Position numbers and translations under genes: made by a program. 64,000 nt of DNA from an uncultured Pseudomonadales bacterium (GTDB taxonomy: Bacteria; Patescibacteriota; Microgenomatia; UBA1400; PJMF01): NCBI GenBank assembly GCA_964574595.1, contig CAZNOF010000003.1, positions 9,715 through 73,714 on the forward strand, written 5' to 3'. This document shows, in pieces, positions 35,387-60,394 of this stretch (within the stretch, counting starts at the first letter, position 1; each line of letters opens with the position of its first letter). The notes beneath the pieces were generated by a model. That model worked only from the letters and a program-made list of their open reading frames with translations, had not been told where the DNA came from and did not search any database.

Positions 35387-38095
35387 CTAGCTTTTCAGAA
35401 GTTCTTGGCTGATTCGGAAGTAACGCTGTTCACCTTGTTGTGTCTGATGATCTAAATCAAATTTACCCCAATAGCAGTCGGTTTCTCGCTCAGGATCTTT
35501 GAAATTACTCAGGCAAATATCATATTCACGGCGAGCAGCTTCAATATCCCCTCGAAGATAGTAGTAATTTGCTAATTGAGCCGATGAAAAGTAATCCCTT
35601 CTTAGATCATAAGAGAAAGATATTAAGAGCTGCTGAACCAGCTGCCACCTTTTTTGTTCGATCAACTCGTTAATCAGTCTTTGGGTTTGTTTACGCAGTT
35701 CATACTTGGCTAAAAAGATATCTAAAGCATGCTGTTTTTGCAGCTCTAAGATAAATGAACGATACAGCTGGCGATCATACGTTGATGGGTGAAAGGGAAA
35801 TGGCGTGGCTGACTCAAAATCTGGATCTATTTGCTGAGCTTTAAGATAGAGCTTGGTGGCACTGCCCATGTCTCCAGACAAATATAGCTGATTCGCTGAT
35901 TTCGCCAGCTCAGCTGATAAGATTTTTTTCCAGCTAAATTCAACTGTTTCTTTTGCCATGTTTTTATCAAGAAGTTGCCAAACTTGATACCAAGCATCAA
36001 GAATCTGTGTTCTTTTCTGAAGATCTGAATTTGCATCTCGATTTTTCAACATGGCATCTGCAGCGTCAGAATAGACATTCCAGGTTTGCCATCGATTACC
36101 ATCATCAACTGCTAACAATAGCTGGACGTCCCTGATCGCTTCCGCTGATTGTTGCTGCCCCAGGTCATACTGCATCTGCCCTATCAACCAAGGTGTAAGC
36201 GTTGTTTTGTAATTTACTAAAAATCCTGTTGGCTGGAGCAAGACGATAGTTTTTTTCATTTCATTTGGCGGAAAACGCGAGGGACTTGTGAAGGCATCAA
36301 ATGGGCGAGACATTGCTAACCCTGAGTCAAATGTTGCCATAGATAAATAGATTTTTGCACTATAGCCAATGTTCTTTTCAGAAAAATTTTTCACCGCAGT
36401 ACTCGCTTGATCAAACAGATCCATCTTTATAGATAAATCGAGCAACTGAATCTTCTCTCCTTGATAGGTCTGGCGAATGTTTTCAAAAGTACTTAAATAG
36501 AGATCTGGCTTATTCTGATTCAAGGCGAGATCTAGCAGTTGCACCTTATTTGCAAGATCAAAGGGCGTAAGTTTCATCAATCTTTGCCTCAACTCTATTT
36601 CTTGGGCGGGAGAAATTCCCGAAGTCAGCAAGTAACTTTTAATTACCTCTGGGCTCATACTATAGAAACTCAAAAGGTACGACACTTCCGGTGAAGTTTT
36701 TATTTGATCTTGAACTCGCCAATAAATGACCGGAAATATTTTGACACTCTGAACCTTCATTCCGGAATACCAAAGGACAGTACTCACTAGATAGCCAGTC
36801 ATCCACAGCCCTAGGAAAATATACCCTAAAGCTACTAATACTCCTGAGAAAAAAACGGGAACGGGAGACGCTGCCAATGCTTGAAATTGATGAAAGCGTT
36901 TTGGAGAATCTTCCTTCTCTCTTAACAGTAATGCCAATGAAATCAGTAACAGTAGCCAAACAACAGAGTAACTTAAGTTGAAGTCAAATAAACTATCTAT
37001 ACAGATACTCATCACCGAAACGTACAAAATGTCAGCGGGAGAAGTCACGCTGAGATTTTTTGGCCGAGCCACCAGGAGCACATAGCCTACTAAACCAAAG
37101 AAAGGCAAACTAAATATTAGTCCGTATTCTGCTAAGAGTTGGAGCATTTCATTGTGCGCGTAAGAACTGAAATAATAGGGCAAGGCAGCTTTTTGATTTG
37201 ATACAACTGTGAAGGTGCCGCCACCCGATCCCCAGAGTGGTTTCTCAATTATCGACTGGACTGCCTGCTTCCAGTACTGAATGCGGAAATCAGAAGTCAG
37301 CTCTTTACAGGTTTGTCTATTCACCGAAGCAGCAAAACATATTTTTTCTGGCTTTATTTTCGTAACAGCAAAGAGACCTAGAACGAGACACCCAACAATT
37401 GATGCCAGCACTAACTTTAGTGGGAACGTTGTTTTTGAATTGTTTTTTTGACTGATGAACCAAAGAAATATTATTACTGCAATGCCAATGGCGATATCAA
37501 TTCTGGCAAAACTCATGACCAATGTAATCAGGAGTATTCCCAAGGGGACATAGCCGTACCACTTTTTTTTGCTGTCCTGAATAACCAGAAAAGCAATTGG
37601 GATACAGAAAAGATACAAAATCGATGCATGGTTGTGGCCGAAGTTGGCTACCAATAAATTCATTCCCGGTAAATGACTACTCAAACTCGGCAGAAAAAAG
37701 AAGAGCGTGCTGAGAAATGAAATATTCAATCCAATCAAAAGGATGCCATACAACAAAAAATGTAATGGTAATTTCTGAGGAGAGGAATGATAAAAGAAAT
37801 CAAACGCACAAACAGCCAGTGACATTAATATGAAAGCGTTCAACGTCAGGGGCAAACTAATGCTAAAGAAAAGTGAGAGGAATGTGCCAAGGTAAAAGCA
37901 CAACAGCAGCGCGACCGCGAGGGGATGTTTTTTTAAAGCTTCTTTCCGATTCTGAAGCCCGTGTGAAAAAAAGAGAACCAGACCGAGTAACCCCCAAAGC
38001 AATATCCCTACAGGCGTCTCACCCATGACCGTAATCAGAAAAAAGATACTTAAAAAAGACAGGTAGAAGAAGAACTGGCTTCGAGAAAGAGTCAC
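35387..38095 (-). CDS. Polytopic membrane protein, O-antigen ligase/polymerase-like (Wzy_C-type) with C-terminal TPR repeats
   Basis: 902 aa; more than 12 TM helices in the N-terminal 420 aa, then a soluble TPR-like region (YYYLRGDIEAARREYDICL). Confidence 0.45.
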   Translation of the reverse strand: MTLSRSQFFFYLSFLSIFFLITVMGETPVGILLWGLLGLVLFFSHGLQNRKEALKKHPLAVALLLCFYLGTFLSLFFSISLPLTLNAFILMSLAVCAFDFFYHSSPQKLPLHFLLYGILLIGLNISFLSTLFFFLPSLSSHLPGMNLLVANFGHNHASILYLFCIPIAFLVIQDSKKKWYGYVPLGILLITLVMSFARIDIAIGIAVIIFLWFISQKNNSKTTFPLKLVLASIVGCLVLGLFAVTKIKPEKICFAASVNRQTCKELTSDFRIQYWKQAVQSIIEKPLWGSGGGTFTVVSNQKAALPYYFSSYAHNEMLQLLAEYGLIFSLPFFGLVGYVLLVARPKNLSVTSPADILYVSVMSICIDSLFDFNLSYSVVWLLLLISLALLLREKEDSPKRFHQFQALAASPVPVFFSGVLVALGYIFLGLWMTGYLVSTVLWYSGMKVQSVKIFPVIYWRVQDQIKTSPEVSYLLSFYSMSPEVIKSYLLTSGISPAQEIELRQRLMKLTPFDLANKVQLLDLALNQNKPDLYLSTFENIRQTYQGEKIQLLDLSIKMDLFDQASTAVKNFSEKNIGYSAKIYLSMATFDSGLAMSRPFDAFTSPSRFPPNEMKKTIVLLQPTGFLVNYKTTLTPWLIGQMQYDLGQQQSAEAIRDVQLLLAVDDGNRWQTWNVYSDAADAMLKNRDANSDLQKRTQILDAWYQVWQLLDKNMAKETVEFSWKKILSAELAKSANQLYLSGDMGSATKLYLKAQQIDPDFESATPFPFHPSTYDRQLYRSFILELQKQHALDIFLAKYELRKQTQRLINELIEQKRWQLVQQLLISFSYDLRRDYFSSAQLANYYYLRGDIEAARREYDICLSNFKDPERETDCYWGKFDLDHQTQQGEQRYFRISQELLKS

Positions 38096-38195
38096 CTCTT
38101 GAGTGTAGCATTTTCACCAAGATAGTCGATACGAAATGGTTCCCAAGGAGTGTTCCTTGACTAACCTATCTTTATACTCTATTTTGAAGGTGTCG

Positions 38196-38417
38196 ATGAC
38201 GTTTCACACTCTTATAAACATCTGGAAAAAAATAAAAGAATTCCAACAAAGCGTATTCAATTTTTTGGTCCTTCATATTGTCTACTTCATCGGAATTGGA
38301 CTGACGGCCATGGTGGCAAAAGCCGTGGGCAAGCATTTTTTGACTCGAGAATATCAATCAACAAGCTGGCAGAAAGCCGGCACAACCAAGCCTGTAGCCT
38401 CTGAACACATGTTTTAG
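38196..38417 (+). CDS. small membrane protein preceding the carbamoyltransferase (SxtJ-like placement)
   Basis: Start trimmed to ATG 38196; one TM (FNFLVLHIVYFIGIGLTAMVA); its stop abuts the carbamoyltransferase start. Confidence 0.35.
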   Translation: MTFHTLINIWKKIKEFQQSVFNFLVLHIVYFIGIGLTAMVAKAVGKHFLTREYQSTSWQKAGTTKPVASEHMF

Positions 38418-38418
38418 T

Positions 38419-40134
38419 ATGACAATCCTAGGAATTTCCTGTTACTACCATGATTCTGCTGCCTGTCTGATGCGTGATGGGAAAATTATTGCCGCTGCTG
38501 CAGAAGAGCGCTTCACCAGAAAAAAGCATGATAATGACTTCCCAATTGAGGCAATTAAATTTTGTCTTGACTTCGGAAAAATTGCCATGAATGAGGTAGA
38601 TGTGGTCTCATTTTATGAAAAACCAATCTGGAAATTTGAACGAATTCTTCATCAACACTTGGAGCATTTCCCATTAAGCTATAAAGCTTTCATGAATACA
38701 GCCGGAGGTTGGTTTAATCAGAAACTGAACATTCAGAAACGCTTACAAGACGACTTACACTTTTTTGGGAAAGTTGAGTATATCCCGCACCACGTCTCGC
38801 ATGCCGCAAGTAGTTTTTATCTTTCACCATTTAAAGAAGCAGTGATCGTGACACTGGACGGTGTGGGTGAGTGGGCAACCACAACCGTGGGTCAAGCAAA
38901 TGCAAAAGGAATCCAGATAGATCAAGAGATAGCTTTCCCCCATTCACTCGGTTTACTTTACAGTGCTCTAACGACATACCTTGGTTTCTCTGCCAATGAT
39001 GCTGAGTACAAAGTCATGGGTTTAGCTGCCTACGGAAATCCTAAACCTTTCCGGAAAAAATTTGCTGAGTTGATTACTCAGTTTCCAGATGGTAGCTACC
39101 AACTGAACATGAAGTATTTTGAGTACGATCATGCTGAACATATGTTCACTCCGGCTCTAGAAGAGCTCTTTGGCTACCCCAGGAGAGTTCCTGAAAGTAA
39201 GGCCTATTCTTATCATGAGAATATTGCAGCCGCACTTCAAGAAACACTCGAGCAAATCACCTTTCAAATTCTGCGGGTTGCCTATGATACGTATAAACTA
39301 CCGAATGTTTGTTTAGCTGGTGGAGTAGCCCTTAACTCAGTTATGAATGGGAAAATTCTCAAAGAAACTCCATTTAAGCAGGTATTTATTCCACCAGATC
39401 CAAGTGATGCGGGTGGCGCAATGGGTGCGGCACTGTGGACCCACCATCACCAAAGCTCAGATACAGTAGCAAAAAAACTTGTGAAAAAGCATGAGTTCTC
39501 TCCGTACCTTGGCCCCGAGTACAGTTGGCATCATATTCAAAACCTACTAAGTAAACATCAACTGAAGTATGAGCTAGTCACTGATCAAAAAAAGCTCATC
39601 GACAAGGCCGCGCTCTATCTAACAAAAGATAAGGTCATTGGATGGTTCCAGGGTCGAATGGAATGGGGTCCTAGAGCGCTGGGTAATCGAAGCATTCTAG
39701 CTTCTGCCAGAAAACCAGAAATGAAAGACATTATTAATGCTCGAATTAAACACCGTGAACTTTTTCGTCCATTTGCGCCAGTCATTATGGAAGAATATGC
39801 CGATGAGTTTTTTGAGACCGACGATCATCTGCCTATCTCGGCAAAATGGATGTTGATGGTCTACCCTTTTAAGGAGAAAAAGAAGAAACTTTTACCGGCC
39901 GTAGTTCATGTTGACGGGACAGGCAGACTTCAAACTGTTGCCCGCAAAGATAACCGTTTATACTACGACGTAGTAAGTGCATATTTTAAAAGAACTGGAG
40001 TGCCGAGTATCATTAATACATCATTTAATGTACGTGGTGAACCAATTGTCTGTACTCCAGAGGATGCAATTCAATGTTTCTTAAAAACAGACATCGATTA
40101 CCTGTTCATTGATCAGTTCATCGTGAGAAAGTAA
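38419..40134 (+). CDS. Carbamoyltransferase (NodU/CmcH family)
   Basis: N-terminus MTILGISCYYHDSAACLMRDGKIIAAAAEERFTRKKHD and C-terminal carbamoyltransferase region; 571 aa. Confidence 0.88.
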   Translation: MTILGISCYYHDSAACLMRDGKIIAAAAEERFTRKKHDNDFPIEAIKFCLDFGKIAMNEVDVVSFYEKPIWKFERILHQHLEHFPLSYKAFMNTAGGWFNQKLNIQKRLQDDLHFFGKVEYIPHHVSHAASSFYLSPFKEAVIVTLDGVGEWATTTVGQANAKGIQIDQEIAFPHSLGLLYSALTTYLGFSANDAEYKVMGLAAYGNPKPFRKKFAELITQFPDGSYQLNMKYFEYDHAEHMFTPALEELFGYPRRVPESKAYSYHENIAAALQETLEQITFQILRVAYDTYKLPNVCLAGGVALNSVMNGKILKETPFKQVFIPPDPSDAGGAMGAALWTHHHQSSDTVAKKLVKKHEFSPYLGPEYSWHHIQNLLSKHQLKYELVTDQKKLIDKAALYLTKDKVIGWFQGRMEWGPRALGNRSILASARKPEMKDIINARIKHRELFRPFAPVIMEEYADEFFETDDHLPISAKWMLMVYPFKEKKKKLLPAVVHVDGTGRLQTVARKDNRLYYDVVSAYFKRTGVPSIINTSFNVRGEPIVCTPEDAIQCFLKTDIDYLFIDQFIVRK

Positions 40135-40136
40135 CT

Positions 40137-40280
40137 ATGTTTAAAGAGTTAATGCAGTTTCTGCTACAAAACAAAAAATGGTGGCTTATTCCACCAGTAA
40201 TCGTCTTCGTCATTTTTGCACTACTTGTTGTCTTCTCCACCACGTCACCTATTGGTCCTTTCGTGTACATGCTTTTTTAA
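40137..40280 (+). CDS. 48-aa small membrane protein (DUF5989-like), not in the ORF track (under 60 aa)
   Basis: ATG 40137, TAA 40278-40280: MFKELMQFLLQNKKWWLIPPVIVFVIFALLVVFSTTSPIGPFVYMLF, a pattern I recall as commonly encoded right after carbamoyltransferase genes. Confidence 0.45.
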   Translation: MFKELMQFLLQNKKWWLIPPVIVFVIFALLVVFSTTSPIGPFVYMLF

Positions 40281-40288
40281 TTTTTAAA

Positions 40289-41266
40289 ATGACAAAACAG
40301 ATTCAAATTCTCATATTGATAGTAGTAATGCTATCTTCAGCTTTTTTAAGCCTTAAAGCAGTGTTTTTTGTCGGAAATGAATTCTTTTTTGACAAATTGT
40401 TTTATCACAAAGATGCAAAGTTAGGTTACGTGGGTCCCCAAGAAAATTGGGCTGATTCAAAGTTTAGTAACAGAAATGCAGATCTCACGAAGCTTGTTTC
40501 AGACACTGCGCGATATCAGCAAAACGGACAGAAGGTACTGGGAATGAAGGATGACAAGACGTATAAAATCGCTGTGATAGGTGACTCATATGTTTGGGGT
40601 CAAGGAATTGCCGATGAAGACAGGTTTGTACATCTTTTAGAGAAGCGACTCTCCAAAATTCGACCAACAAAAGTTGTCTCCCTCTCTCGCTGTGGTGACT
40701 CAATTTTTGACAACTACATCAAGTACACCCAAATACAAAAACTCGAAGAGCCCTATGATTTAGTTATCTTTGGATTGGTGAACAATGATCTCATCTTTTC
40801 AGAAGGTGACAGCTATGACGAAACACAACAAACAGCAATCCAGTCCTCCTGCACAACTGGTCCGGTAGCTTGGGACAATCAAATGAAGACAGAAGAATAC
40901 TCAACAGTAGTGGAGCGTAGTTTTGATCCAACTTCTCAAAATTACTGCGCTTTTCAACACATCCTCCCACTTCTGCCAAAGGAAAAAACACTCTACTACA
41001 ATTTTGATGAGTTTAAGAATGACTGGAAACCCATATCGAGTTATGGAAACGAACTGGAAAAAGCAGGTTTAACAGTCATCTCAACCAAGTCGTACTTTGA
41101 GAGTCATAAAACGAACTATCCTGATATTTTTAAGCCAAACGGTTTTGACCGATTTCAAGTAAGTCCAAAAGAAGGACATCCTTCGGCTTTAGCTAATAAA
41201 ATGTTTTCCGATCAGCTTTTCACAGAGATTACTCAAAATAAAAAATGGCAGTTTACAGCGAACTAA
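40289..41266 (+). CDS. SGNH/GDSL-family hydrolase (esterase/acylhydrolase), N-terminal TM anchor
   Basis: Start trimmed to ATG 40289; block I motif KIAVIGDSYVWGQG (GDSxxxG). Confidence 0.6.
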   Translation: MTKQIQILILIVVMLSSAFLSLKAVFFVGNEFFFDKLFYHKDAKLGYVGPQENWADSKFSNRNADLTKLVSDTARYQQNGQKVLGMKDDKTYKIAVIGDSYVWGQGIADEDRFVHLLEKRLSKIRPTKVVSLSRCGDSIFDNYIKYTQIQKLEEPYDLVIFGLVNNDLIFSEGDSYDETQQTAIQSSCTTGPVAWDNQMKTEEYSTVVERSFDPTSQNYCAFQHILPLLPKEKTLYYNFDEFKNDWKPISSYGNELEKAGLTVISTKSYFESHKTNYPDIFKPNGFDRFQVSPKEGHPSALANKMFSDQLFTEITQNKKWQFTAN

Positions 41267-42735: not shown

Positions 42736-42786
42736 CAGAATTGGTTTCCTCTATCTTCCAGTACAAAAGAAGCTAAAATCGTTACC

Positions 42787-44472: not shown

Positions 44473-44495
44473 AGACAGAGTATAACATCCCTTGT

Positions 44496-47384: not shown

Positions 47385-47417
47385 GGTTGCGCCAGAGTAT
47401 ATACTTCACCACACAGA

Positions 47418-53183: not shown

Positions 53184-54309
53184 ATCTGAGATTTGCGATT
53201 TTCTTTACCAAACTTGTCGTATCTTAGCAAAAAATAATCTTGTTATAGTCATCAATATTCAAAAAGCAAAAAGTTTTAAAGAAATCATAGAAAATCTGTT
53301 TCATAGTCAATCTGACTTTCAATTAGTGAAAAAACAGGAACAGGTATATTACTTTACACCAGTTTTGTTGCTACCTTTTCGCCGATTTCCAACGATTGTC
53401 AAAATAAATACAGTCATAAATATATTGATAATGCAACTTATTTTAGACATTTTCTTCAGACAGTATCAAAAAAGATTCCTTTGGTTTTTCTTTCCACAAT
53501 TAGCAGATCTTCACCAATATTTTGGGAAAACTTGGAAGACCATTTATGACGTCATAGATTTTTACACTTCCCCAAATCTACAAATCAATCAAAAACTAGA
53601 TGAGCAAAAGAAATACTTGCTGAACACTTCTTTTTTAGTGACTACCATTTCAGGGACACTCAAGTCTGTTTACCTCAAACTACATAAGAGAGAAATACAT
53701 GTTGTACCTCAGGGCTTCAACCAAGAAATGTTCCAGGTATCAAAAAAATCACCTCACATACCACTTCTTCAGCAAGATAAACCAATCATTGGATTTATTG
53801 GCCATATAAATGAGCGACTCGACTTCGCACTACTTTCAAAGCTCATCAAAAAGAATACTCAGTGGAGGTTTGTTTTTGTCGGTCCTAAAGAAACAAATAT
53901 TAATGTGGCGATTACTGAGAATCATGATCAAATAAATGAAATTTTAAACCATGATAATGTTGTTTGGATCGATGAACAGCCTAAAAATGTCATACCCTCT
54001 CTGATCAATCAGTTCTCTGTCTGTATGATTCCCTATGATATCCAATACGAGTTTAATCGTTACTGTTATCCCATGAAGGTATTTGAGTACTTTTATGCTC
54101 AAAAACCAGTTATCTCAACTGAAATCATTGAACTGAAGAAACTTCAGCCGCTTCTCTCAATCGCTAGATCTGCAAATGACTGGGAGAGAGAACTGAAGAA
54201 ACTCCTAAGTAGCCCATGGTCACAAAAAAATGGTTCACTCCAAAGGAAACGCGCGCTGGAGAACAGCTGGGAGAAAAAATTAGAGGCAATCAGCCAGTAT
54301 TTGGCGTAA
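53125..54309 (+). CDS. Glycosyltransferase (GT-B fold, group 1-like)
   Basis: IGFIGHINERLDFALL...FVFVGP region; the 5' end overlaps the divergent upstream gene by 59 nt, so the start is uncertain. Confidence 0.45.
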   Translation: MYSKNLLKRSLIVFPSNEGKSEICDFLYQTCRILAKNNLVIVINIQKAKSFKEIIENLFHSQSDFQLVKKQEQVYYFTPVLLLPFRRFPTIVKINTVINILIMQLILDIFFRQYQKRFLWFFFPQLADLHQYFGKTWKTIYDVIDFYTSPNLQINQKLDEQKKYLLNTSFLVTTISGTLKSVYLKLHKREIHVVPQGFNQEMFQVSKKSPHIPLLQQDKPIIGFIGHINERLDFALLSKLIKKNTQWRFVFVGPKETNINVAITENHDQINEILNHDNVVWIDEQPKNVIPSLINQFSVCMIPYDIQYEFNRYCYPMKVFEYFYAQKPVISTEIIELKKLQPLLSIARSANDWERELKKLLSSPWSQKNGSLQRKRALENSWEKKLEAISQYLA

Positions 54310-54346
54310 CTTTTCCTAAGCCAAATGGATGAAGCTTCAAAAATGA

Positions 54347-55069
54347 TTAACTAGCTCGATATTTTTTGATGACTTCTACTCCACCAATTTTTTTAATTTT
54401 CCCGCTATCCACCCATATAATTTTATTACAATTTTCTTCAAGAAATTCTAGCCAGTGAGAAACCACAATGATGGTTTTTTTCTGCTTGAATAGACTTTTA
54501 ATACGCTGACTCAATTTTTTTTGAAAGTTATCATCGCCTGCTGAAATTCCCTCATCCAATATTAACGTATCTGGATTAGCATGAATGGCAATCGCAAAAC
54601 CTAGCCGAAGTTTCATACCCTGAGAGTATGTATAAAGTGGAGTGTCAATAAATTTACCGATACCGGCAAACTCTACAATATCGGAAAACTGGGCAATTAT
54701 TTCCTTTTTGGTCATGCCAATGATCAACCCGTTCAAATAAATATTTTCCTCGCCGGTTAAATCCGGATGAAACCCTGCTTCTAAATCGATCAGTGAAACA
54801 ATACGCCCTTTTGTCTTAACAGAGCCAGTTGTTGGTGTAGAGATACCTGCTATAACCTTGAGCAAGGTTGTTTTTCCCGAACCATTTTTCCCAATGATTC
54901 CAATTTTCTCCCCTCTCTCTATTTCCAACGAGAGATCATTCAAAGCAGTAAACTGCTCAGAGTGAAACCCTTTCAGAATTTGCTCAGAAAAAGTCGGCTT
55001 TTGATGATGAAGCGTGTACTTTTTTGTCACGTGGTGAATATCAATTACAATGTCTTTTTTCATATCCAA
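54347..55069 (-). CDS. ABC transporter ATP-binding protein, polysaccharide/teichoic-acid export type (Wzt/TagH-like)
   Basis: Walker A GIIGKNGSGKTTLLKVIAG, signature LSQGMKLRLGFA, Walker B LILDEGIS. Confidence 0.85.
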   Translation of the reverse strand: MDMKKDIVIDIHHVTKKYTLHHQKPTFSEQILKGFHSEQFTALNDLSLEIERGEKIGIIGKNGSGKTTLLKVIAGISTPTTGSVKTKGRIVSLIDLEAGFHPDLTGEENIYLNGLIIGMTKKEIIAQFSDIVEFAGIGKFIDTPLYTYSQGMKLRLGFAIAIHANPDTLILDEGISAGDDNFQKKLSQRIKSLFKQKKTIIVVSHWLEFLEENCNKIIWVDSGKIKKIGGVEVIKKYRAS

Positions 55070-55857
55070 TCGTCGAAAAACTGCGCTTCATGTCTGAAGA
55101 TCAGCACTCCTGCAATAAAAAGAACACCTGTTTCAAATATACTCAGTCCAAGACTCCATAAATCAGGCATTGGCCTACTTAATAAAATTGATTGATACGT
55201 CTCAATCATGCTGGTCAACGGGTTTAACTTAATAATCGTTTGCAAGTGACTAGGCAGAACTGACGAAAAATAGACAATCGGCGTAGCGTAAAACCACAAC
55301 GGGACAAATGCCTGAACAAAAAATGTAATATCACGATACTTCACATTCAGAGCAGAAGTAATAAAGCTCATTCCAGTCAAAAGTACCGTCGTCCAAATCA
55401 GCAAGATTGGCAAAAAAATTAATTTCCAAATAATTACTTTTTGCAGGGCAATCAGGACGATCACAAAAAGCCCAAAAGCGATCAAGGTATGAAATAAGTT
55501 AGACAAAATAATTGATAACACAATCACTTCTCTGGGGAACTTTGCTTTTTCAATTAATGGAAGCTCAAAAACAATTCCCGGGGTTGTTTTCAAAAAACTT
55601 AATGAGAAATAGTTCCAAACTAATAACCCAGTAAAAAGATAGAGAAAGTAGTCTACAACTGACGTTTTAAACACAAACGAAAAGACACCGCCAATGATGA
55701 CCATCTGCAAAACAGGATTTAAAATAATCCAGAGAAACCCCAAAATAGCATATCGATATCTTGCTTTGATCTCACGTTCCGTCATTGCGATAAGAAGTTC
55801 CCATCCATGCTTCCAAGATGGAGTTGTCAGATCAAAGTACGACGAGAACAAACGCAT
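55060..55857 (-). CDS. ABC-2 type transporter permease (Wzm/TagG-like)
   Basis: 265 aa, 6 TM; translationally coupled to the ATPase. Confidence 0.8.
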   Translation of the reverse strand: MRLFSSYFDLTTPSWKHGWELLIAMTEREIKARYRYAILGFLWIILNPVLQMVIIGGVFSFVFKTSVVDYFLYLFTGLLVWNYFSLSFLKTTPGIVFELPLIEKAKFPREVIVLSIILSNLFHTLIAFGLFVIVLIALQKVIIWKLIFLPILLIWTTVLLTGMSFITSALNVKYRDITFFVQAFVPLWFYATPIVYFSSVLPSHLQTIIKLNPLTSMIETYQSILLSRPMPDLWSLGLSIFETGVLFIAGVLIFRHEAQFFDDWI

Positions 55858-55908
55858 AGTCGATACTTTACCATAAATTTGATGTTATGATGCCTTTACT
55901 ACACGCAT

Positions 55909-56754
55909 ATGCAAGAACAGACTCCAAATTGGTGGCAAAAAGCATTCTCAATAGAACAACTGGATACTTTTTTCTCCAATCACCAAGGCGATACTGAAAA
56001 GGAAACTGCGTTTTTAGAACGCGTCGGAAAAGTTTCTAAGCAGGCTGAAATTCTCGACGTATGCTGCGGATTTGGCCGCCACTCACTCGCTTTAGCAAAA
56101 AAAGGCTACACTCACATCACAGCAATTGACGTTTCAAAAGATTACATTAAGTTAGGAAAAGAGCTTAGTCAAAAACAAGCAATTCAACCGCACTTCATTG
56201 CGCAAGACATCCGCAAATCTCGTTTTACTGATGCTTTCTTTCAATTTATTTTTGTGATGTATACCTCGTTTGGCTACTTTCCAGACGAAGATAATCGCAA
56301 ACTGTTAAAGAAATTAACAAAAACATTAAGACCTGATGGCCGGTTGGTAATTGATGTCATGAATGCGGAACTCCTGTTTAGTGACATTCTTCGGGATGGA
56401 GTAAAGGTTAATCAAAAAGTGTGGACAAGAACACGAATGTATGAGAACAATGGCATTTCGTATATTGATCATGACACCTACTTTTTAGATAAAGGTCGAG
56501 TTAAACTGCTCCGCAAATGGCAAAAGGCTAAGAAAAAAGGTTCTTATACCATGGATATTATCCATTACACGCTTGATCAGTATCAAAGCATGTTTCAAGA
56601 AAACGGCTTATATATTGAAAAAGTGCTCGGCAACTACGATGGATCTCGATATTCAGCCACATCCCCAAGAAAAATTATGGTGGTCAAAAAAGGGACTAAA
56701 CGCGAGTCAATTTGGGACAGCCTCAGAGGTTACCTTGATGAAGTGCTGCATTAG
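55909..56754 (+). CDS. Class I SAM-dependent methyltransferase
   Basis: Motif I ILDVCCGFGRHSLALAKKGY and post-I acidic residue (AIDVS). Confidence 0.8.
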   Translation: MQEQTPNWWQKAFSIEQLDTFFSNHQGDTEKETAFLERVGKVSKQAEILDVCCGFGRHSLALAKKGYTHITAIDVSKDYIKLGKELSQKQAIQPHFIAQDIRKSRFTDAFFQFIFVMYTSFGYFPDEDNRKLLKKLTKTLRPDGRLVIDVMNAELLFSDILRDGVKVNQKVWTRTRMYENNGISYIDHDTYFLDKGRVKLLRKWQKAKKKGSYTMDIIHYTLDQYQSMFQENGLYIEKVLGNYDGSRYSATSPRKIMVVKKGTKRESIWDSLRGYLDEVLH

Positions 56755-57855
56755 TTTTTCGTATGATTTTTTCATTGAGAACTTTTTAACGACGGATGAT
56801 CTTGCTTGCAAAGCATGCCTCCTATAGGTTTTTGGTGAAGTCAGATACTTTTCAATTGCTTGCGAAAAAAAGAATGCTGATGGATATGCTACTGCAAAGC
56901 CATTTTCATCATCGTGAACTACTTCAATATTTCCTGAACCATTCGTTACAACAGTTGGGACACCACACAGGAGTGACTCAATTCCGGCATTTGGCAAGGC
57001 GAATTTTCGACTAGGAATGAGATGAATAAATGCCTTTTGAAAAACTTCAGCCACTTCACTTGAAGCCAGATAGGGCTTAAAGAATACTTGCTGCCGCACA
57101 CCTGCCGCACTCGCCCGCTCAATCAGAGCCGCTACATATTGTTTGTCTGATGCTGCTTCCCTCATTCCATAATGATGAAACTCGACTTCTGGATGCTTTC
57201 GGCAAATAATTGCGGCTGAATCAATAAATTCTTCTAAATTTCGATTTACGTCAATTCGACTCATCGTCACAATAATTTTTTTGCTTGACCTAGTTCTGGG
57301 AGAGAGTTTCTTGGGCTGAAACTTTTTCTCATCAATTCCATCATAAATCAGAGTTATTTTCTGGGGGTCTATTCTGTACTCATCCAAGAATACTTCTTTC
57401 ACATACTCAGAGATGGCAATGTGACTAGTTCCATGACCAGCTCTCAACAAACTCCTTAGCAGGAAGTTATCAATTGTCCAAATATCCCGATCATGTATGA
57501 CTAGCTTTTTTTGAAATATGTGAGCAAATGGCGCACAAAAAAGCACCCATTGATAGTGATTGCAGTAGATCAGATCTGGATTACTTACGATCATCTGCCA
57601 AAAACAATTGATCAGCATTTTCAATTGTGCCAATCGAGAGCGAAATGATTTTGGATAGACATTCGTAAAAAAATCAGCAGAGATATTAATGATTTTGATG
57701 TTTTGAGGAAAATGATAGGTATGTAGCACGGAATTTGGAACCGTGGCAACAGTGATCTTCCAAGCTGGCTGTTTTTGAGCAAGGTACAAGAGGAAATGAG
57801 CTAATTGAGTGGGCGGCCCACCAATTGCTTCTAGCTCAACGCAAAATATTTTCAT
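56707..57855 (-). CDS. Glycosyltransferase family 4
   Basis: GT-B fold; C-terminal GIESLLCGVPTVV region. Confidence 0.65.
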   Translation of the reverse strand: MKIFCVELEAIGGPPTQLAHFLLYLAQKQPAWKITVATVPNSVLHTYHFPQNIKIINISADFFTNVYPKSFRSRLAQLKMLINCFWQMIVSNPDLIYCNHYQWVLFCAPFAHIFQKKLVIHDRDIWTIDNFLLRSLLRAGHGTSHIAISEYVKEVFLDEYRIDPQKITLIYDGIDEKKFQPKKLSPRTRSSKKIIVTMSRIDVNRNLEEFIDSAAIICRKHPEVEFHHYGMREAASDKQYVAALIERASAAGVRQQVFFKPYLASSEVAEVFQKAFIHLIPSRKFALPNAGIESLLCGVPTVVTNGSGNIEVVHDDENGFAVAYPSAFFFSQAIEKYLTSPKTYRRHALQARSSVVKKFSMKKSYEKLMQHFIKVTSEAVPN

Positions 57856-59189
57856 TTGGAAACCTGAGCCACTGTATTCAAATACTCTGACTGCAACCGT
57901 AAAATTGGGACTCGTGACTTCTTAAGCTGGAACGCAAAAAATCGTCTCAAGTACGTTACATCAAAAAATCGCGTCGCACTCATCTCTGCACAGTTCTTTT
58001 CTAGTATTTCCCTAAAAAGAGTTATGGAATCCTGGCCACTGAGTGAGAAAAACTCTTTGACTACCTTTTTCCGAGCTAGAAGAGTGGCTTTTTTTTCTGG
58101 CGATTCTGTCAGTTTTAAAATCAGCTTAAACAACTCTTGAAAAGTTTCAACCGCATATGAATACCGTCTCACTTCAGTAAGTGAAGGCAGTGTTCCCCAA
58201 ATTCCTTGACCTTCTTCAGGATAGAAAAAAATACTCGGCCGATCTAATGACATAAAATCGATAGAAATGCTTGATAAATCAGTAACAAGAACGTCACTTG
58301 CTAACAGGTTATTTTTCGGCCCTTGGTAGTTGTACTGTTCGGTATTTTCTAAATGTACGTAGCCGGAAAATTCTTTGGCAACTTTTTTCATTTTTCTGTC
58401 AACTTGGTAATGTTGAACAGCTAAGTGGTGCGGACGGAGAATGAGGTTAAAGTGATGTTTTTTCGTCCATTCACAAAACGCTCTTAATAGCTGCTCGTCT
58501 TCCTCAAAAGTTCCGACTGGCCAAATCTTCTTCGACTCCCAGCTAGGTGCGTAGCAAATCGTTTTCTTCTTTGGATCCAGACCAATCTTTTTCAGATACG
58601 CCTTTTTTTCAAAATCTTTTTCATTCAAGTAAAAATTGAGGAGTCTTCCAGGAGAAATTACCCGATCCATTTGCGCTGGCGATAAATGGCAGCGCTCGAT
58701 TACTTTTTGTCTAGTAAATTGACCATTTGTAAAAGTCAGCCAATAGTTTTTGAAACTTTTTACACGAGTCTCGTCAAAGTATGAGCTCCCGATCTCAAAC
58801 AGATGTCCATGAAAAACCTGCACCGTATATTTGCCAATCATTTCTTCCAATTCTGGAATGACCATATCAAGCAACCAAATTGCTTTTTCACCTACCAGTG
58901 ATCTGACCGAGTAGATGTAGGGCTCTAACTCAGCAAACCAGCTATCATAGAGTCGAAACTGCTTTTTTTTAATCAAGCTATCTTTTGGATAGCAATCCAC
59001 ACCCGCAATTTCGCAAAGCATTTTTCTTTTGATAAATGCGGGAGCATTTTGATACGATCCCCGATTGGTATACACCATCATCGGTTCAAGTACTTCAGAA
59101 TTCATTAAAGCTTGGTAGTAAATTTCCATACTTCTACCACAACCAACATCTTCTAGAGCTAATATCACTACTGGTATTTTATGTAACAT
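57852..59189 (-). CDS. CDP-alditol/CDP-glycerol phosphotransferase (TagB/TagF/TarL family)
   Basis: C-terminal VLVTDLSSISIDFMSLDRPSIFFY matches the TagF-family (I/L)TDYSS...D...KP(I/V)IF(F/Y) block. Confidence 0.6.
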   Translation of the reverse strand: MLHKIPVVILALEDVGCGRSMEIYYQALMNSEVLEPMMVYTNRGSYQNAPAFIKRKMLCEIAGVDCYPKDSLIKKKQFRLYDSWFAELEPYIYSVRSLVGEKAIWLLDMVIPELEEMIGKYTVQVFHGHLFEIGSSYFDETRVKSFKNYWLTFTNGQFTRQKVIERCHLSPAQMDRVISPGRLLNFYLNEKDFEKKAYLKKIGLDPKKKTICYAPSWESKKIWPVGTFEEDEQLLRAFCEWTKKHHFNLILRPHHLAVQHYQVDRKMKKVAKEFSGYVHLENTEQYNYQGPKNNLLASDVLVTDLSSISIDFMSLDRPSIFFYPEEGQGIWGTLPSLTEVRRYSYAVETFQELFKLILKLTESPEKKATLLARKKVVKEFFSLSGQDSITLFREILEKNCAEMSATRFFDVTYLRRFFAFQLKKSRVPILRLQSEYLNTVAQVSK

Positions 59190-59199
59190 ATTGAGGTAC

Positions 59200-59970
59200 T
59201 TATGCTTGAATTTTCTTCAGGACAGCAGCACATTTGCTTTCAGCAATCTTAAGATCTTCAGGTGTATCAACTTCACAACATAAGAGATCTGCGCAGTCTA
59301 CAGCAATCGGGACTGATTTTTTCACTTTGTATGAGGTATATGAGTCTTCAGCATACAGCTTATAAAACTCTTCACCTTGGAGCAGTGCTAGCTCTTTTGC
59401 CAGCCCAGCTGCTGCTTTTTTAGAGATGAACTCAATTCCAATACCGATTCCGTCTGACTCATCACTTTTCAACTGCTTACTGAACCGAAGAATTTTATGA
59501 GAATTCTTCTCTAAGGAGACTCGGTACTCAGTTAAGTCCTCGCCTGCCTTTTTGGGCAAGAAAGCAACATTTATTCCTTGGCCGGAACTCATGAGACGGT
59601 ACAACAACTCAGGTTCGTAGATTAAGTCACCATCTTGTCGAAAAAAACTTTGACCCTTAATAAAAGGGGCAGCTAAAGAAAACGAGTGAAGGGTATTTGT
59701 TTCCTGATATGAGGGGTTTTCTACGTAGACTTTTTCAAACTCAGGAAATTCTGTATTTATATATCTTCGAATCTGATCTTGTCGGCCACCCACAACCAGA
59801 ATCAACTTTTTTACCCCAATTTTTCGTAAAGAAGAAAGCGCATACCAGATGACTGGTTTCGTGCCGACTTGCAACAGCGATTTATGCGTCACCTCAGTAA
59901 GGTTCTTCATCCGGGATCCAATTCCCGCCAGTAAAATGATGGCTAACTGAGTTTTTTCCATACCTACCAT
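59200..59970 (-). CDS. Sugar/alditol-phosphate nucleotidyltransferase (IspD/TarI/LicC-like cytidylyltransferase)
   Basis: N-terminus AIILLAGIGSRM (GxGxR nucleotide-binding loop). Confidence 0.65.
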   Translation of the reverse strand: MVGMEKTQLAIILLAGIGSRMKNLTEVTHKSLLQVGTKPVIWYALSSLRKIGVKKLILVVGGRQDQIRRYINTEFPEFEKVYVENPSYQETNTLHSFSLAAPFIKGQSFFRQDGDLIYEPELLYRLMSSGQGINVAFLPKKAGEDLTEYRVSLEKNSHKILRFSKQLKSDESDGIGIGIEFISKKAAAGLAKELALLQGEEFYKLYAEDSYTSYKVKKSVPIAVDCADLLCCEVDTPEDLKIAESKCAAVLKKIQA

Positions 59971-59977
59971 TCAAATA

Positions 59978-60340: not shown

Positions 60341-60394
60341 TCTGATAAACGGCTGTTTCTTACTAGCTGTTCTACTAGGCTACGTGTATCATAA

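What the first reader, a model, noticed from the sequence alone, without database searches (positions are those of the whole stretch)
35387..59970. About 25-kb cell-surface glycopolymer (teichoic-acid-like) biosynthesis and export island
Contiguous genes, listed in genomic order, encode the following. A Wzy_C-like membrane protein with TPR. A carbamoyltransferase with small membrane partners. An SGNH hydrolase. Three GT-C (PMT/ArnT-like) membrane transferases across the window, two of them inside this island. A GT26 WecB/TagA-type primer glycosyltransferase. An NAD-dependent epimerase. AsnB. Several GT4/GT2 enzymes. A second Wzy-like protein. Wzt/Wzm ABC exporter. A SAM methyltransferase. A TagF-family phosphotransferase adjacent to an IspD/TarI-like cytidylyltransferase. 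The combination of TagA-like primer GT, CDP-alditol cytidylyltransferase, TagF-like polymerase and ABC-2 exporter is the logic of wall teichoic acid synthesis. The carbamoyltransferase, methyltransferase and AsnB (possible amidation) suggest a decorated polymer. If the host is a CPR bacterium this would be an unusually complete glycopolymer pathway for such a reduced genome.
Basis: partly seen in the sequence, partly recalled or inferred. Interest (0 to 1): 0.6.

Follow-up and report, generated by a model that had tools for sequence, protein, structure and literature searches.

The report
Surface glycan cluster with swappable phosphotransferase cassette
This is a real, tightly packed gene cluster for building and exporting a cell-surface sugar polymer in an uncultured bacterium; its teichoic-acid-like part is a small, rare, swappable three-gene cassette rather than the core of the pathway, so it is an interesting variant but not a new kind of system.

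Summary
The gene inventory is largely confirmed. In 35387-59970, 17 of 21 ORFs pass a Pfam curated cut-off for a family used in glycan synthesis or export, and one more (GDSL hydrolase) hits below cut-off. The TagF-like assignment holds: Pfam 57 bits, TagF/TarL/Cps3D top the fold search, and both catalytic His are present. The 'IspD/TarI-like' assignment fails. The adjacent enzyme is an NTP_transferase closest to IPCT, PntC and LicC. No TagO, TagD, TarIJ, MnaA or LCP ligase lies in the window; the primer is a small Bac_transf enzyme 9 kb upstream.

Comparative loci decide the reading. A relative (L012) keeps the backbone gene for gene, with the same strand interleaving: Wzy_C, GT26, GT4, GT2, GT4, GT-C-like, 289-aa protein, Wzy_C, GT4-like, Wzt, Wzm. 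It carries a different cassette where the window has methyltransferase, GT4, TagF-like and NTase. The NTase plus TagF-like pair, usually with the methyltransferase, recurs in other glycan clusters.

The best reading is an ABC-exported heteroglycan with exchangeable decoration cassettes. The 445-aa TagF-like enzyme has no polymerase-type N-terminal domain and probably adds one or a few CDP-activated phospho-head groups. The donor is unknown.

The parts
25863..26489 (+). Small monotopic phosphoglycosyltransferase (Bac_transf, 208 aa).
   Evidence: Pfam PF02397 at 170 bits; TIGR03025 C-terminal domain. Its homologue sits directly beside the cluster in L010, L005, L007, L009, L013 and L004.
35387..38095 (-). 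902-aa Wzy_C (O-antigen ligase/polymerase family) membrane protein with a large helical C-terminal domain that may contain TPR repeats.
   Evidence: PF04932 at 59 bits; TPR only at E 0.007; about 11 TM segments. The orthologue in L012 is 36% identical over 925 aa.
38136..42735 (.). Accessory block absent from L012: 93-aa 1-TM ORF (+), NodU/CmcH-type O-carbamoyltransferase 38419-40134 (+), membrane-anchored weak GDSL/SGNH-like protein 40178-41266 (+), and a 490-aa GT-C-like membrane protein 41263-42735 (-).
   Evidence: hhalign of the 490-aa protein against the 500-aa family gives probability 96.8%, E 2e-10. The block is missing between Wzy_C and GT26 in L012.
42787..43551 (+). GT26 WecG/TagA/CpsF-family glycosyltransferase.
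   Evidence: PF03808 at 170 bits; TIGR00696 at 128 bits against a cut-off of 69. The TarA equivalog model scores only 76 against 350. It is 50% identical to the L012 orthologue.
43516..46301 (.). SDR epimerase/dehydratase (-) and AsnB-type glutamine amidotransferase (+). This is a probable sugar-modification pair, absent from L012 and present in L010.
   Evidence: The AsnB homologue in L010 is 39% identical and sits next to a GT4 and an epimerase.
46278..49417 (.). GT4 (-), GT2 (+) and GT4 (-): cytoplasmic glycosyltransferases of the conserved backbone.
   Evidence: Pfam. L012 orthologues are 45%, 41% and 58% identical, in the same order and on the same strands.
49304..50806 (+). 500-aa polytopic membrane protein with a GT-C-like fold.
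   Evidence: No Pfam hit. AF2 model has pLDDT 80. The top 19 Foldseek PDB hits are GT-C enzymes (PglB, STT3, AglB, ALG12, AftA, ArnT, EmbA/B), with TM-scores mostly 0.4-0.5. D36-E37 is invariant.
50807..53183 (-). 289-aa single-TM protein of unknown function and a 504-aa Wzy_C protein. The two are always adjacent.
   Evidence: Orthologues occur in L012 (56% and 46%), L008 and L013.
53125..54309 (+). GT4-type, TuaH-like glycosyltransferase.
   Evidence: TuaH model 107 bits, below cut-off. Homologues lie near the TagF-like gene in L001, L005, L007, L009 and L013, and also in L012, which has no TagF-like gene.
54347..55857 (-). Wzt (240 aa, no C-terminal carbohydrate-binding domain) and Wzm ABC-2 glycan exporter.
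   Evidence: PF00005 and PF01061. Best NCBIfam models are teichoic-acid and galactan exporters, all below cut-off. They are 64-68% identical to L012 and 45-59% to L005, L007, L009 and L013.
55909..56754 (+). Class I SAM methyltransferase belonging to the cassette.
   Evidence: Its orthologue lies immediately upstream of the NTase in L001, L005, L006/L014, L007, L008, L009 and L016. It is absent in L013 and L017.
56707..57855 (-). GT4 glycosyltransferase overlapping the TagF-like gene by 4 nt.
   Evidence: A homologue lies in L008 near the cassette.
57852..59189 (-). TagF-family CDP-alcohol phosphotransferase made of the GT-B catalytic domain only (445 aa).
   Evidence: PF04464 at 57 bits. The profile hits TarL at 2e-18, Cps3D at 4e-16 and TagF at 1e-15. 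AF2 pLDDT is 84.6 and Foldseek is topped by TagF, Cps3D, TarL and Bcs3. H127 aligns with TagF H444 and H254 with H584.
59200..59970 (-). NTP_transferase-fold nucleotidyltransferase of LicC/IPCT/PntC type; probable maker of the CDP-activated donor.
   Evidence: PF00483 and PF12804 hit, with no IspD hit. Full-length matches to 4jd0 (2e-11) and 6pd1 (1e-10), plus LicC 1jyk (9e-10). It is adjacent to the TagF-like gene in every locus recovered.

Best explanation
The region is a cluster for an undecaprenyl-phosphate-linked heteroglycan that is assembled in the cytoplasm and exported by an ABC-2 transporter.

Shown:
- The gene families are present.
- A conserved backbone set exists: Wzy_C(900 aa), GT26, GT4, GT2, GT4, GT-C-like, 289-aa protein, Wzy_C(500 aa), GT4-like, Wzt, Wzm. 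A relative keeps it gene for gene.
- Three blocks in the window are accessory: carbamoyltransferase/GDSL-like/GT-C-like; epimerase/AsnB; and methyltransferase/GT4/TagF-like/NTase.

Inferred mechanism:
1. The small Bac_transf enzyme at 25863-26489 primes Und-P.
2. GT26 and the GT4/GT2 enzymes build the chain.
3. The LicC/IPCT-type nucleotidyltransferase makes a CDP-activated phospho-alcohol.
4. The domain-minimal TagF-like enzyme uses H127 as base and H254 on the leaving group. It transfers one or a few phospho-head groups onto the glycan as a phosphodiester decoration or cap. The partner methyltransferase modifies the head group or its acceptor.
5. Wzm/Wzt export the product.
6. Outside the membrane, the GT-C-like proteins and the carbamoyl/acyl enzymes tailor it, and a Wzy_C-family protein ligates it to its acceptor.

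The donor head group (polyol or amino-alcohol) and the final acceptor (wall, lipid or protein) are not determined.
For: -
- L012 (GCA_964746005.1) has eleven collinear orthologues at 36-68% identity on identical strands. Downstream of Wzm it carries PLP-decarboxylase/Methyltransf_24/QueC-like/PqqD instead of MTase/GT4/TagF-like/NTase. It also lacks the carbamoyltransferase and AsnB blocks.
- NTase followed by TagF-like is adjacent and co-directional in all 10 independent loci recovered. The MTase precedes them in 7. These loci have different backbones, including a Wzx/Wzy cluster with sulfotransferases (L001).
- L008 and L010 are one 24-kb contig that unites the PGT, Wzy_C, GT-C-like, GT26, AsnB and GT4 genes with the cassette.
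- The TagF fold and both catalytic His are present.
- The protein is 445 aa, the GT-B domain only, and its closest curated model is the non-processive TarF.
- PMC10901376 states that polymerising TagF-like enzymes carry an extra N-terminal domain.
- The NTase's nearest solved relatives all make CDP-alcohols.
Against: - No biochemical data exist, and processivity cannot be read from sequence.
- A TuaH-like GT often neighbours the TagF-like gene (L001, L005, L007, L009, L013). A GT plus phosphotransferase pair could build a repeating poly(glycosyl-X-phosphate).
- The short Wzt without a carbohydrate-binding domain gives no evidence for a cap-recognition mechanism.
- Two Wzy_C proteins are unexpected in a purely ABC-dependent pathway.
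- The PGT is 9 kb away from the island in the window.
- Whether L012's genome has the cassette elsewhere is unknown.
Confidence: 0.55

Rival explanations
1. This is a genuine teichoic-acid-like polymer. GT26 completes a linkage unit. The TagF-like enzyme, alone or alternating with a neighbouring GT4/TuaH-like enzyme, builds a repeating phosphodiester-linked main chain from a CDP-polyol made by the adjacent NTase. Wzm/Wzt act as TagGH.
For: - Every characterised TagF-family enzyme uses CDP-glycerol or CDP-ribitol (established knowledge; PMC10901376 and PMC5974469).
- TagF/TarL/Cps3D are the top fold and profile hits.
- The best NCBIfam models for Wzt are teichoic-acid exporters.
- An aldo-keto reductase resembling L-glyceraldehyde-3-P or methylglyoxal reductases sits directly downstream of the TagF-like gene in L005, L006/L014, L007 and L009. 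This gives a TarJ/TarI/TarL-like reduce-activate-transfer logic.
- A TuaH-like GT is a frequent neighbour.
- LPXTG-type sorting signals indicate a Gram-positive-type wall.
Against: - No IspD/TarI, TarJ, TagD, TagO, MnaA or LCP ligase lies in the 64-kb window.
- The aldo-keto reductase is absent from the window.
- The enzyme lacks the N-terminal domain of known polymerases.
- The backbone and exporter persist without the cassette in L012.
- The canonical polyol-contacting WHGTPLK motif reads FHG(E/H)LF(E/D/N) in this subfamily.
Confidence: 0.25
2. This is a protein O-glycosylation pathway of the S-layer/slg type. A glycan is built on Und-PP by a PGT and GTs, capped, exported by Wzm/Wzt, and transferred by a Wzy_C-family O-oligosaccharyltransferase onto Ser/Thr-rich wall-anchored surface proteins or pilins encoded next to the cluster. 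This concerns the acceptor and is compatible with the best explanation.
For: - Two Wzy_C proteins are core to the cluster and no LCP ligase is present.
- Two roughly 670-aa Ser/Thr/Pro-rich surface proteins (26585-30628, one with LPRTG plus a TM segment) and a 524-aa protein (24247-25821) lie between the PGT and the island.
- Their homologues flank the cluster in L012 (63% identity) and L010 (43% identity).
- PilN and PilO genes are nearby.
- The PGT + GTs + methyltransferase + Wzm/Wzt + Wzy_C O-OTase architecture is that of the Geobacillus stearothermophilus slg cluster (my own knowledge, not tested here).
Against: - Wzy_C membership does not distinguish polymerase, WaaL-type ligase and O-OTase.
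- No glycosylation sequon or experimental glycoprotein is known.
- Adjacency of the surface-protein genes could simply reflect conserved gene order in the lineage.
Confidence: 0.25
3. The region holds two or more independent pathways lying side by side: a Wzy-dependent polysaccharide and an ABC-dependent, phosphate-containing one. It is not one system.
For: - Wzy_C proteins and an ABC-2 exporter coexist.
- The genes are on interleaved strands with 14 strand switches.
- The accessory blocks come and go between relatives.
Against: - No Wzx flippase (Polysacc_synt) or chain-length regulator was found in the island.
- The interleaved backbone, including both Wzy_C genes and Wzm/Wzt, is conserved as one unit in L012.
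- Only one initiating PGT was found in the window.
Confidence: 0.12

Closest known systems
Wall teichoic acid tag/tar pathway of Bacillus and Staphylococcus (TagO, TagA, TagB, TagD or TarIJ, TagF/TarL, TagGH, LCP)
   Same: - A GT26 TagA-family enzyme.
- A TagF-family GT-B phosphotransferase with both catalytic His.
- An adjacent nucleotidyltransferase that probably makes the CDP-donor.
- An ABC-2 exporter.
- A probable monoderm wall with sortase substrates.
   Different: - The initiator is a Bac_transf PGT, not TagO.
- The NTase is LicC/IPCT-type, not TagD or IspD/TarI.
- There is no reductase, MnaA or LCP ligase in the window.
- The TagF-like enzyme lacks the polymerase N-terminal domain.
- Five extra GTs, two Wzy_C and two GT-C-like proteins are present.
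- The phosphotransferase cassette is dispensable in a relative.
TagF-like capsule polymerases of Gram-negative pathogens (Cps3D, Cps7D, Bcs3; PMC5974469, PMC10299916)
   Same: - A TagF-like domain works inside an ABC-transporter-dependent glycan pathway together with glycosyltransferases.
- Cps3D (8qoy) and Bcs3 (8a0c) are among the top structural matches.
   Different: - Those are large multidomain enzymes of about 1000-1200 aa that fuse GT, TagF-like and TPR modules and use CDP-glycerol or CDP-ribitol.
- The enzyme here is a stand-alone 445-aa domain with a different donor-loop motif and a different NTase partner.
ABC-transporter-dependent O-antigen and S-layer glycan pathways (PGT or WecA, GTs, terminal methyl or phosphomethyl cap, Wzm/Wzt, WaaL/WsaB Wzy_C ligase)
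   Same: - A PGT, serial GT4/GT2 enzymes, a methyltransferase and phosphate chemistry near the exporter.
- Wzm/Wzt.
- Wzy_C-family proteins as candidate ligases.
- Low-GC, cassette-like variability between relatives.
   Different: - Wzt has no carbohydrate-binding domain.
- The phosphate would come from a CDP-alcohol through a TagF-like enzyme rather than from a WbdD-type kinase.
- There are two Wzy_C proteins plus GT-C-like proteins.
- The genes are interleaved on both strands instead of forming an operon.
LicC / IPCT / PntC phospho-alcohol cytidylyltransferases
   Same: The NTase matches them over its full length and better than it matches sugar-1-phosphate nucleotidylyltransferases. All three make CDP-alcohols or a CMP-phosphonate used to decorate surface polymers or to make solutes.
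   Different: - Identity is only about 25-30%.
- The usual partner transferases are LicD or CDP-alcohol phosphatidyltransferases, not a TagF-like enzyme.
- Substrate specificity here is unknown.
Bacillus subtilis teichuronic acid (tua) operon
   Same: - A small or large Bac_transf initiator (TuaA).
- GT4 TuaC-like, GT2 TuaG-like and TuaH-like enzymes, with TuaH the best NCBIfam model for 53125-54309.
- A Wzy-like membrane protein (TuaE).
   Different: - All hits are far below the equivalog cut-offs.
- tua uses a Wzx flippase, not an ABC exporter.
- No UDP-glucose dehydrogenase is present here.

Membership tests
Wall teichoic acid (tag/tar) pathway | TagO/WecA-type (PF00953) GlcNAc-1-P transferase as initiator | tested here: not met
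   No PF00953 hit among the 56 window ORFs scanned against Pfam. The only initiator is the Bac_transf PGT at 25863-26489. Only the 64-kb window could be tested, not the whole genome.
Wall teichoic acid (tag/tar) pathway | TagA (GT26) ManNAc transferase | tested here: inconclusive
   GT26 family membership is met (PF03808 at 170 bits; TIGR00696 at 128 against 69). The TarA equivalog model scores only 76 bits against a cut-off of 350, and no MnaA lies in the window.
Wall teichoic acid (tag/tar) pathway | CDP-glycerol or CDP-ribitol supply by TagD (PF01467) or TarI (IspD, PF01128) plus TarJ | tested here: not met
   The NTase 59200-59970 hits PF00483 and PF12804 only, with no IspD or TagD model at E<=0.01. 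No reductase lies in the window.
Wall teichoic acid (tag/tar) pathway | Processive TagF/TarL-type polymerase with an extra N-terminal domain | tested here: not met
   The protein is 445 aa. The AF2 model is a single GT-B unit that aligns to the TagF C-terminal domain only. The best curated model is TarF (34 bits). The criterion comes from PMC10901376.
Wall teichoic acid (tag/tar) pathway | TagGH ABC-2 exporter | tested here: met
   PF00005 and PF01061 are above cut-off. TagH models are the best NCBIfam hits but fall below equivalog cut-offs (207 against 538; 194 against 320).
Wall teichoic acid (tag/tar) pathway | LCP (LytR-CpsA-Psr) ligase to peptidoglycan | tested here: not met
   No LCP hit among the window ORFs scanned. 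The rest of the genome was not available.
TagF-like / Glyphos_transf (PF04464) | Profile match above the curated cut-off | tested here: met
   57.1 bits against 22.1, covering profile positions 171-331. The subfamily profile hits TarL at 1.9e-18, Cps3D at 4e-16 and TagF at 1.5e-15.
TagF-like / Glyphos_transf (PF04464) | GT-B fold closest to TagF | tested here: met
   The model has pLDDT 84.6 and pTM 0.85. Foldseek ranks 1-15 are TagF, Cps3D, TarL and Bcs3, at E 1e-12 to 1e-10.
TagF-like / Glyphos_transf (PF04464) | Two invariant catalytic histidines (TagF H444/H584; TarL H300/H433) | tested here: met
   H127 in VQVFHG aligns with TagF IQTWHG. H254 in RPHHL aligns with TagF RMH584YL. Both are invariant in the subfamily.
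TagF-like / Glyphos_transf (PF04464) | Canonical donor-loop motif WHG(T)P(L)K that contacts the polyol | tested here: not met
   The subfamily has FHG(E/H)LF followed by E/D/N/Q. The Lys is kept in only 1 of 9 members. The functional meaning is inferred only.
IspD/TarI cytidylyltransferase | Match to PF01128 or the TarI/IspD NCBIfam models | tested here: not met
   Neither appears in the Pfam list (E<=0.01) nor among the best 25 of 38 NCBIfam hits shown, which are sugar-1-P NTases and IPCT/DIPPS.
LicC/IPCT/PntC-type phospho-alcohol cytidylyltransferase | Full-length similarity to characterised members; CTP specificity; phospho-alcohol substrate | tested here: inconclusive
   The top three PDB matches are 4jd0 (residues 9-241, 2e-11), 6pd1 (9-243, 1e-10) and 1jyk (9e-10). 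Nearly all sugar-1-P enzymes match only the first 60-100 residues. Nucleotide and substrate specificity cannot be tested with these tools.
GT-C glycosyltransferases | Polytopic fold of PglB/ArnT/PMT type with an acidic motif in the first external loop | tested here: inconclusive
   49304-50806 has no Pfam hit (PMT_2 at E=5). Its AF2 model (pLDDT 80) nevertheless matches only GT-C enzymes at the top (TM-scores mostly 0.4-0.5, E 2e-3 to 0.2), and D36-E37 is invariant. 41263-42735 is homologous over 240 columns. hhalign finds no link to the window's PMT_2 protein.
ABC-transporter-dependent Und-PP-glycan pathway (O-antigen / S-layer glycan type) | Initiating PGT, cytoplasmic GTs, Wzm/Wzt and a Wzy_C-family ligase, with no Wzx | tested here: met
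   All families are present and no Polysacc_synt flippase is in the island. The set is conserved as a unit in L012. A ligase as opposed to a polymerase role for the Wzy_C proteins cannot be tested here.

The most novel reading that the evidence does not exclude
The NTase plus TagF-like pair, usually with its methyltransferase, is a horizontally mobile decoration cassette. In it a TagF-family enzyme has been recruited to a new donor class: a CDP-activated non-polyol head group, such as an N-methylated phospho-amino-alcohol resembling phosphocholine or phosphoethanolamine. It would install a zwitterionic cap on an ABC-exported glycan, which Wzy_C-family ligases then attach to LPXTG or Ser/Thr-rich surface proteins of an ultrasmall (CPR-type) bacterium.

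Hints:
- The NTase resembles LicC and PntC.
- The methyltransferase's annotated relatives are small-molecule N-methyltransferases.
- PLP decarboxylases, a threonine-transaldolase-like enzyme and a P-loop kinase-like gene accompany the cassette in other loci.
- The polyol-contacting Lys of the TagF motif is replaced by acidic or polar residues.
Probability: 0.15. Interest if true: 0.65.

Novelty: new variant of a known kind. Interest (0 to 1): 0.4.

Why it matters
Surface glycopolymers of uncultured, probably episymbiotic bacteria are essentially uncharacterised, and they are likely to mediate attachment to hosts. This cluster shows a modular design: a conserved ABC-exported glycan backbone with exchangeable decoration cassettes. 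It also defines a very rare TagF-like subfamily. Only 8 representatives reach E<1e-30 among 1.8 billion proteins, and only 5 loci were found in 185,579 species genomes. The subfamily is paired with a non-canonical cytidylyltransferase. If its donor is not a classical CDP-polyol, the chemistry of the TagF family would be widened. If it is a CDP-polyol, this is simply a teichoic-type phospho-decoration outside Firmicutes. In either case the finding is incremental for glycobiology rather than a new principle.

Tried and rejected
- **Campylobacter O-methyl-phosphoramidate pathway.** I considered it because a methyltransferase, an NTP_transf-type cytidylyltransferase and an APS-kinase-like gene occur in L001. 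I rejected it. No glutamine kinase or amidohydrolase homologue is present, and the APS-kinase-like gene is in L001 only, where sulfotransferases explain it.
- **GT2 47373-48278 as a GtrB/ArnC-type Und-P-sugar synthase feeding the GT-C-like proteins.** NCBIfam gave no support.
- **Link between the in-island GT-C-like proteins and the window's PMT_2 protein.** BLASTP and hhalign found none.
- **Promoter and terminator consensus scan of 41000-60500.** Counts equalled those of shuffled sequence, so it was uninformative.
- **Rfam scan of the window.** It found only one tRNA.
- **Locating the window's own contig through P0154.** The protein is not on record in the contig index.
- **Literature searches.** Searches for this cassette or for teichoic acids in CPR found nothing specific.
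- **Top PDB match of the methyltransferase (9ri2, 'putative methyltransferase').** It carries no functional information.

Full report
**Observation.**
The interval 35387-59970 holds 21 tightly packed ORFs.
- Wzy_C protein of 902 aa.
- NodU/CmcH-type carbamoyltransferase, preceded by one 93-aa single-TM ORF.
- GT26 WecG/TagA-family enzyme.
- SDR epimerase/dehydratase.
- AsnB (TIGR01536, above its cut-off).
- GT4, GT2 and GT4.
- A second Wzy_C protein.
- A GT4/TuaH-like enzyme.
- Wzt (240 aa) and Wzm.
- A class I SAM methyltransferase.
- Another GT4.
- A Glyphos_transf (TagF-family) protein.
- A nucleotidyltransferase 10 nt upstream of it on the same strand.

Some items are weaker:
- The TPR hit is sub-threshold.
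- The 'SGNH hydrolase' scores 24 bits against a cut-off of 32.9.
- The two in-island 'GT-C' proteins have no Pfam or NCBIfam match even at E<=5.

**GT-C-like proteins.**
I built an alignment of 13 homologues of the 500-aa protein. The AF2 model has pLDDT 80. Its 19 best Foldseek matches in the PDB are all GT-C enzymes: PglB, STT3, AglB, ALG12, AftA, ArnT and EmbA/B. TM-scores are mostly 0.4-0.5 and E-values are modest.

An Asp-Glu pair just after TM1 is invariant. The 490-aa protein is homologous over about 240 columns (hhalign 96.8%). The GT-C reading is therefore supported at fold level only. The third GT-C, outside the island (3607-5058), is a regular PMT_2 hit.

**TagF-like enzyme.**
Evidence for membership of the TagF family:
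- Pfam PF04464 scores 57 bits against a cut-off of 22.
- A subfamily profile hits TarL (2e-18), Cps3D (4e-16) and TagF (1e-15) in the PDB.
- The AF2 model (pLDDT 84.6, pTM 0.85) is closest to TagF, Cps3D, TarL and Bcs3.
- H127 (VQVFHG) aligns with the TagF catalytic base H444 (IQTWHG). H254 (RPHHL) aligns with H584. Both are invariant in the subfamily.

Evidence that it is not a classical polymerase:
- The protein is only the GT-B catalytic unit.
- The TarL paper states that polymerising family members carry an additional N-terminal domain (PMC10901376).
- The nearest curated model is the non-processive TarF.
- The canonical WHGTPLK donor loop reads FHG(E/H)LF(E/D/N) in this subfamily.

The subfamily is very rare:
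- Eight representatives reach E<1e-30 among 1.84 billion proteins.
- Five loci were found in 185,579 species genomes.
- Five loci were found in the metagenome collection.

**Nucleotidyltransferase.**
The 'IspD/TarI-like' call fails. Only PF00483 and PF12804 match. NCBIfam lists sugar-1-P nucleotidyltransferases and IPCT/DIPPS.

The three best solved relatives are inositol-1-P cytidylyltransferase 4jd0, the AEP cytidylyltransferase PntC 6pd1 and phosphocholine cytidylyltransferase LicC 1jyk. The first two match over the whole length. Nearly all sugar-1-P enzymes match only the N-terminal nucleotide loop. A CDP-alcohol-forming role is therefore plausible, but the head group is open.

**What is missing.**
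The window ORFs scanned against Pfam and NCBIfam (nearly every ORF of 120 aa or more) contain no TagO/WecA, MnaA, TagD, TarJ or LCP ligase.

The only initiating enzyme is a small Bac_transf phosphoglycosyltransferase at 25863-26489, 9 kb upstream. An LPRTG-plus-TM sorting signal on the 672-aa protein at 28610-30628 indicates a sortase-bearing, Gram-positive-type wall.

**Comparative evidence.**
Three observations carry the argument.

1. *The backbone is conserved without the cassette.* L012 (GCA_964746005.1, 389-kb contig) carries, in the same order and on the same strands, orthologues at 36-68% identity of Wzy_C(900 aa), GT26, GT4, GT2, GT4, the 500-aa GT-C-like protein, the 289-aa protein, Wzy_C(500 aa), the GT4-like enzyme, Wzt and Wzm. 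A homologue of the upstream surface protein is also present. L012 lacks the carbamoyltransferase block and the epimerase/AsnB pair. After Wzm it carries PLP-decarboxylase/Methyltransf_24/QueC-like/PqqD in place of MTase/GT4/TagF-like/NTase.

2. *The cassette is portable.* NTase followed by TagF-like is adjacent and co-directional in every other locus found. These are L001, L004, L005, L006/L014, L007, L008, L009, L013, L016 and L017.
   - The methyltransferase lies immediately upstream in seven of them.
   - Their contexts differ. L001 is a Wzx/Wzy cluster with sulfotransferases.
   - L005, L007, L009 and L013 have PGT, Wzm, Wzt and the cassette.

3. *One contig unites cassette and backbone.* The 24-kb contig covered by L008 and L010 joins the cassette with AsnB, several GT4s, the 289-aa protein, Wzy_C, GT26, the GT-C-like protein, a larger Wzy_C and the PGT. 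It also carries a homologue of the window's 24247-25821 protein.

The backbone is thus a conserved unit, and the TagF-like block is one of several exchangeable accessory cassettes. The island is 39.5% GC against 42.9% for the rest of the window, which is typical of variable polysaccharide loci.

**Mechanism.**
The most economical reading has these steps:
1. A Und-P-linked heteroglycan is initiated by the PGT.
2. It is extended by GT26 and the GT4/GT2 enzymes.
3. It is decorated in the cytoplasm with one or a few phospho-head groups. The TagF-like enzyme transfers them from a CDP-donor made by the NTase, and a methylation step follows or precedes.
4. It is exported by Wzm/Wzt.
5. It is tailored outside the membrane by the GT-C-like proteins and the carbamoyl/acyl enzymes.
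6. It is ligated by a Wzy_C protein.

Steps 1, 2 and 4 rest on family membership and synteny. Steps 3, 5 and 6 are inferred.

**Donor identity.**
Two lines of context disagree.

*For a polyol donor:*
- All known TagF enzymes use CDP-glycerol or CDP-ribitol.
- An aldo-keto reductase follows the TagF-like gene in four or five related loci. Its best models are methylglyoxal and L-glyceraldehyde-3-P reductases, all below cut-off.

*For an amino-alcohol donor:*
- The NTase resembles LicC and PntC.
- The methyltransferase's annotated relatives are small-molecule N-methyltransferases.
- An Orn/DAP-type PLP decarboxylase lies directly upstream of the methyltransferase in L005, L008 and L009.
- In some related loci the cassette is also accompanied by group II decarboxylases and a threonine-transaldolase-like enzyme. 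L005 additionally has a gamma-glutamyl-amine synthetase-like enzyme, and L005 and L009 a P-loop kinase-like gene.
- The donor-loop Lys is lost.

None of these accessory genes is in the window, so I leave the head group undetermined.

**Rivals.**
- A true teichoic-acid-like repeating polymer remains possible at about 0.25, for example with the TagF-like enzyme alternating with the frequently neighbouring TuaH-like GT.
- The acceptor could be protein, as in slg-type O-glycosylation. The two Wzy_C proteins, the absence of an LCP ligase and the conserved neighbouring Ser/Thr-rich, sortase-anchored proteins all point that way.
- Independent juxtaposed pathways are unlikely, because the interleaved backbone is inherited as one unit.

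**Host.**
A CPR or Patescibacteria origin is plausible but not demonstrated:
- Homologues of the 500-aa protein and of the cassette occur in Woesebacteria and Roizmanbacteria records.
- The window has a DUF5667 protein, PilN/PilO and sortase signals.
- The ≥90%-identity cluster of the window's LepA holds only one named member, labelled 'soil metagenome'.

The cluster is not unusually complete. Precursor, anchoring and several canonical teichoic-acid genes are absent from the window. Similar clusters exist in at least two relatives.

**Verdict.**
The cluster is real and the TagF call is correct. The IspD call is wrong, and the 'WTA logic' is only partly supported. I rate it a new variant of a known kind, with moderate interest.

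Noticed in passing
window 35387-59970; L012 3371-16648: Genes alternate strands at 14 of 20 junctions with almost no intergenic DNA. Convergent pairs overlap by 4-52 nt and divergent pairs are 0-51 nt apart. L012 keeps the same interleaving gene for gene, and there a GT4 and the GT-C-like gene are exactly back-to-back. In L005, L007, L009 and L013 the shared genes are co-directional. How such a cluster is transcribed is unexplained.
   Followed up: partly
window 26585-30628 and 24247-25821: Two tandem surface proteins of about 670 aa, rich in Ser/Thr/Pro, lie between the PGT and the island. One ends in LPRTG plus a hydrophobic tail. A 524-aa Pur_ac_phosph_N/Big_13 protein ends in MPRSG plus a TM segment. 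Homologues flank the cluster in L012 (63% identity) and L010 (43% identity). They are possible glycan acceptors.
   Followed up: partly
window 30705-30778: A tRNA-Ile with anticodon TAT, which is uncommon in bacteria. Both ARAGORN and Rfam (65.5 bits) find a tRNA here; the Ile(TAT) identity is ARAGORN's.
   Followed up: no
window 19214-19306: ARAGORN calls a 93-nt tRNA-Lys(CTT) on the + strand, inside the LepA gene on the - strand. Rfam does not report it, so it is probably a false positive.
   Followed up: partly
L008/L010 (CAZYNM010000017.1) and L005, L007, L009: These contigs are labelled Pseudomonadales or Gammaproteobacteria MAGs. Yet L010 shares a non-glycan neighbour (43% identity to 24247-25821) and the PGT (54%) with the window. 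The aldo-keto reductase beside the TagF-like gene is 64-68% identical between the Roizmanbacteria contig L006 and the 'Gammaproteobacteria' loci. This suggests either recent horizontal transfer of the cassette or unreliable bin labels.
   Followed up: no
window 57852-59189 (database note): In the 90%-identity protein collection, the window's TagF-like protein sits in a cluster represented by a 54-aa Bordetella 'integrase core domain' fragment. This looks like a clustering artefact and explains why the self-hit was missing from the homology search.
   Followed up: partly
L001 (Ga0214473_10000302) 8455-10004: Two tandem paralogues of the cassette NTase (33% and 31% identity to the window's) precede the TagF-like gene. 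An APS-kinase-like gene, two sulfotransferases, two radical-SAM enzymes and ScmC/PqqD-like genes lie in the same glycan cluster.
   Followed up: no
window 60395-63452: A MacA/MacB-type tripartite efflux set (HlyD adaptor, ABC ATPase, MacB_PCD/FtsX permease) lies directly downstream of the island. It is probably unrelated to the glycan pathway.
   Followed up: no
window 8059-14066: Two class A penicillin-binding proteins (788 and 800 aa) flank a GH18 chitinase-like gene. MurJ lies at 20801-22516 and PilN/PilO at 22534-23717. The whole window is rich in envelope genes.
   Followed up: no
alignment A2, columns about 60-100 (subfamily N-terminal region): Most members of the TagF-like subfamily carry a conserved H-x3-D-C-x4-C-x-L-x4-H pattern, which may be a metal site. 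The window protein has lost most of it: it keeps the first Cys but lacks the second Cys and the His residues.
   Followed up: no
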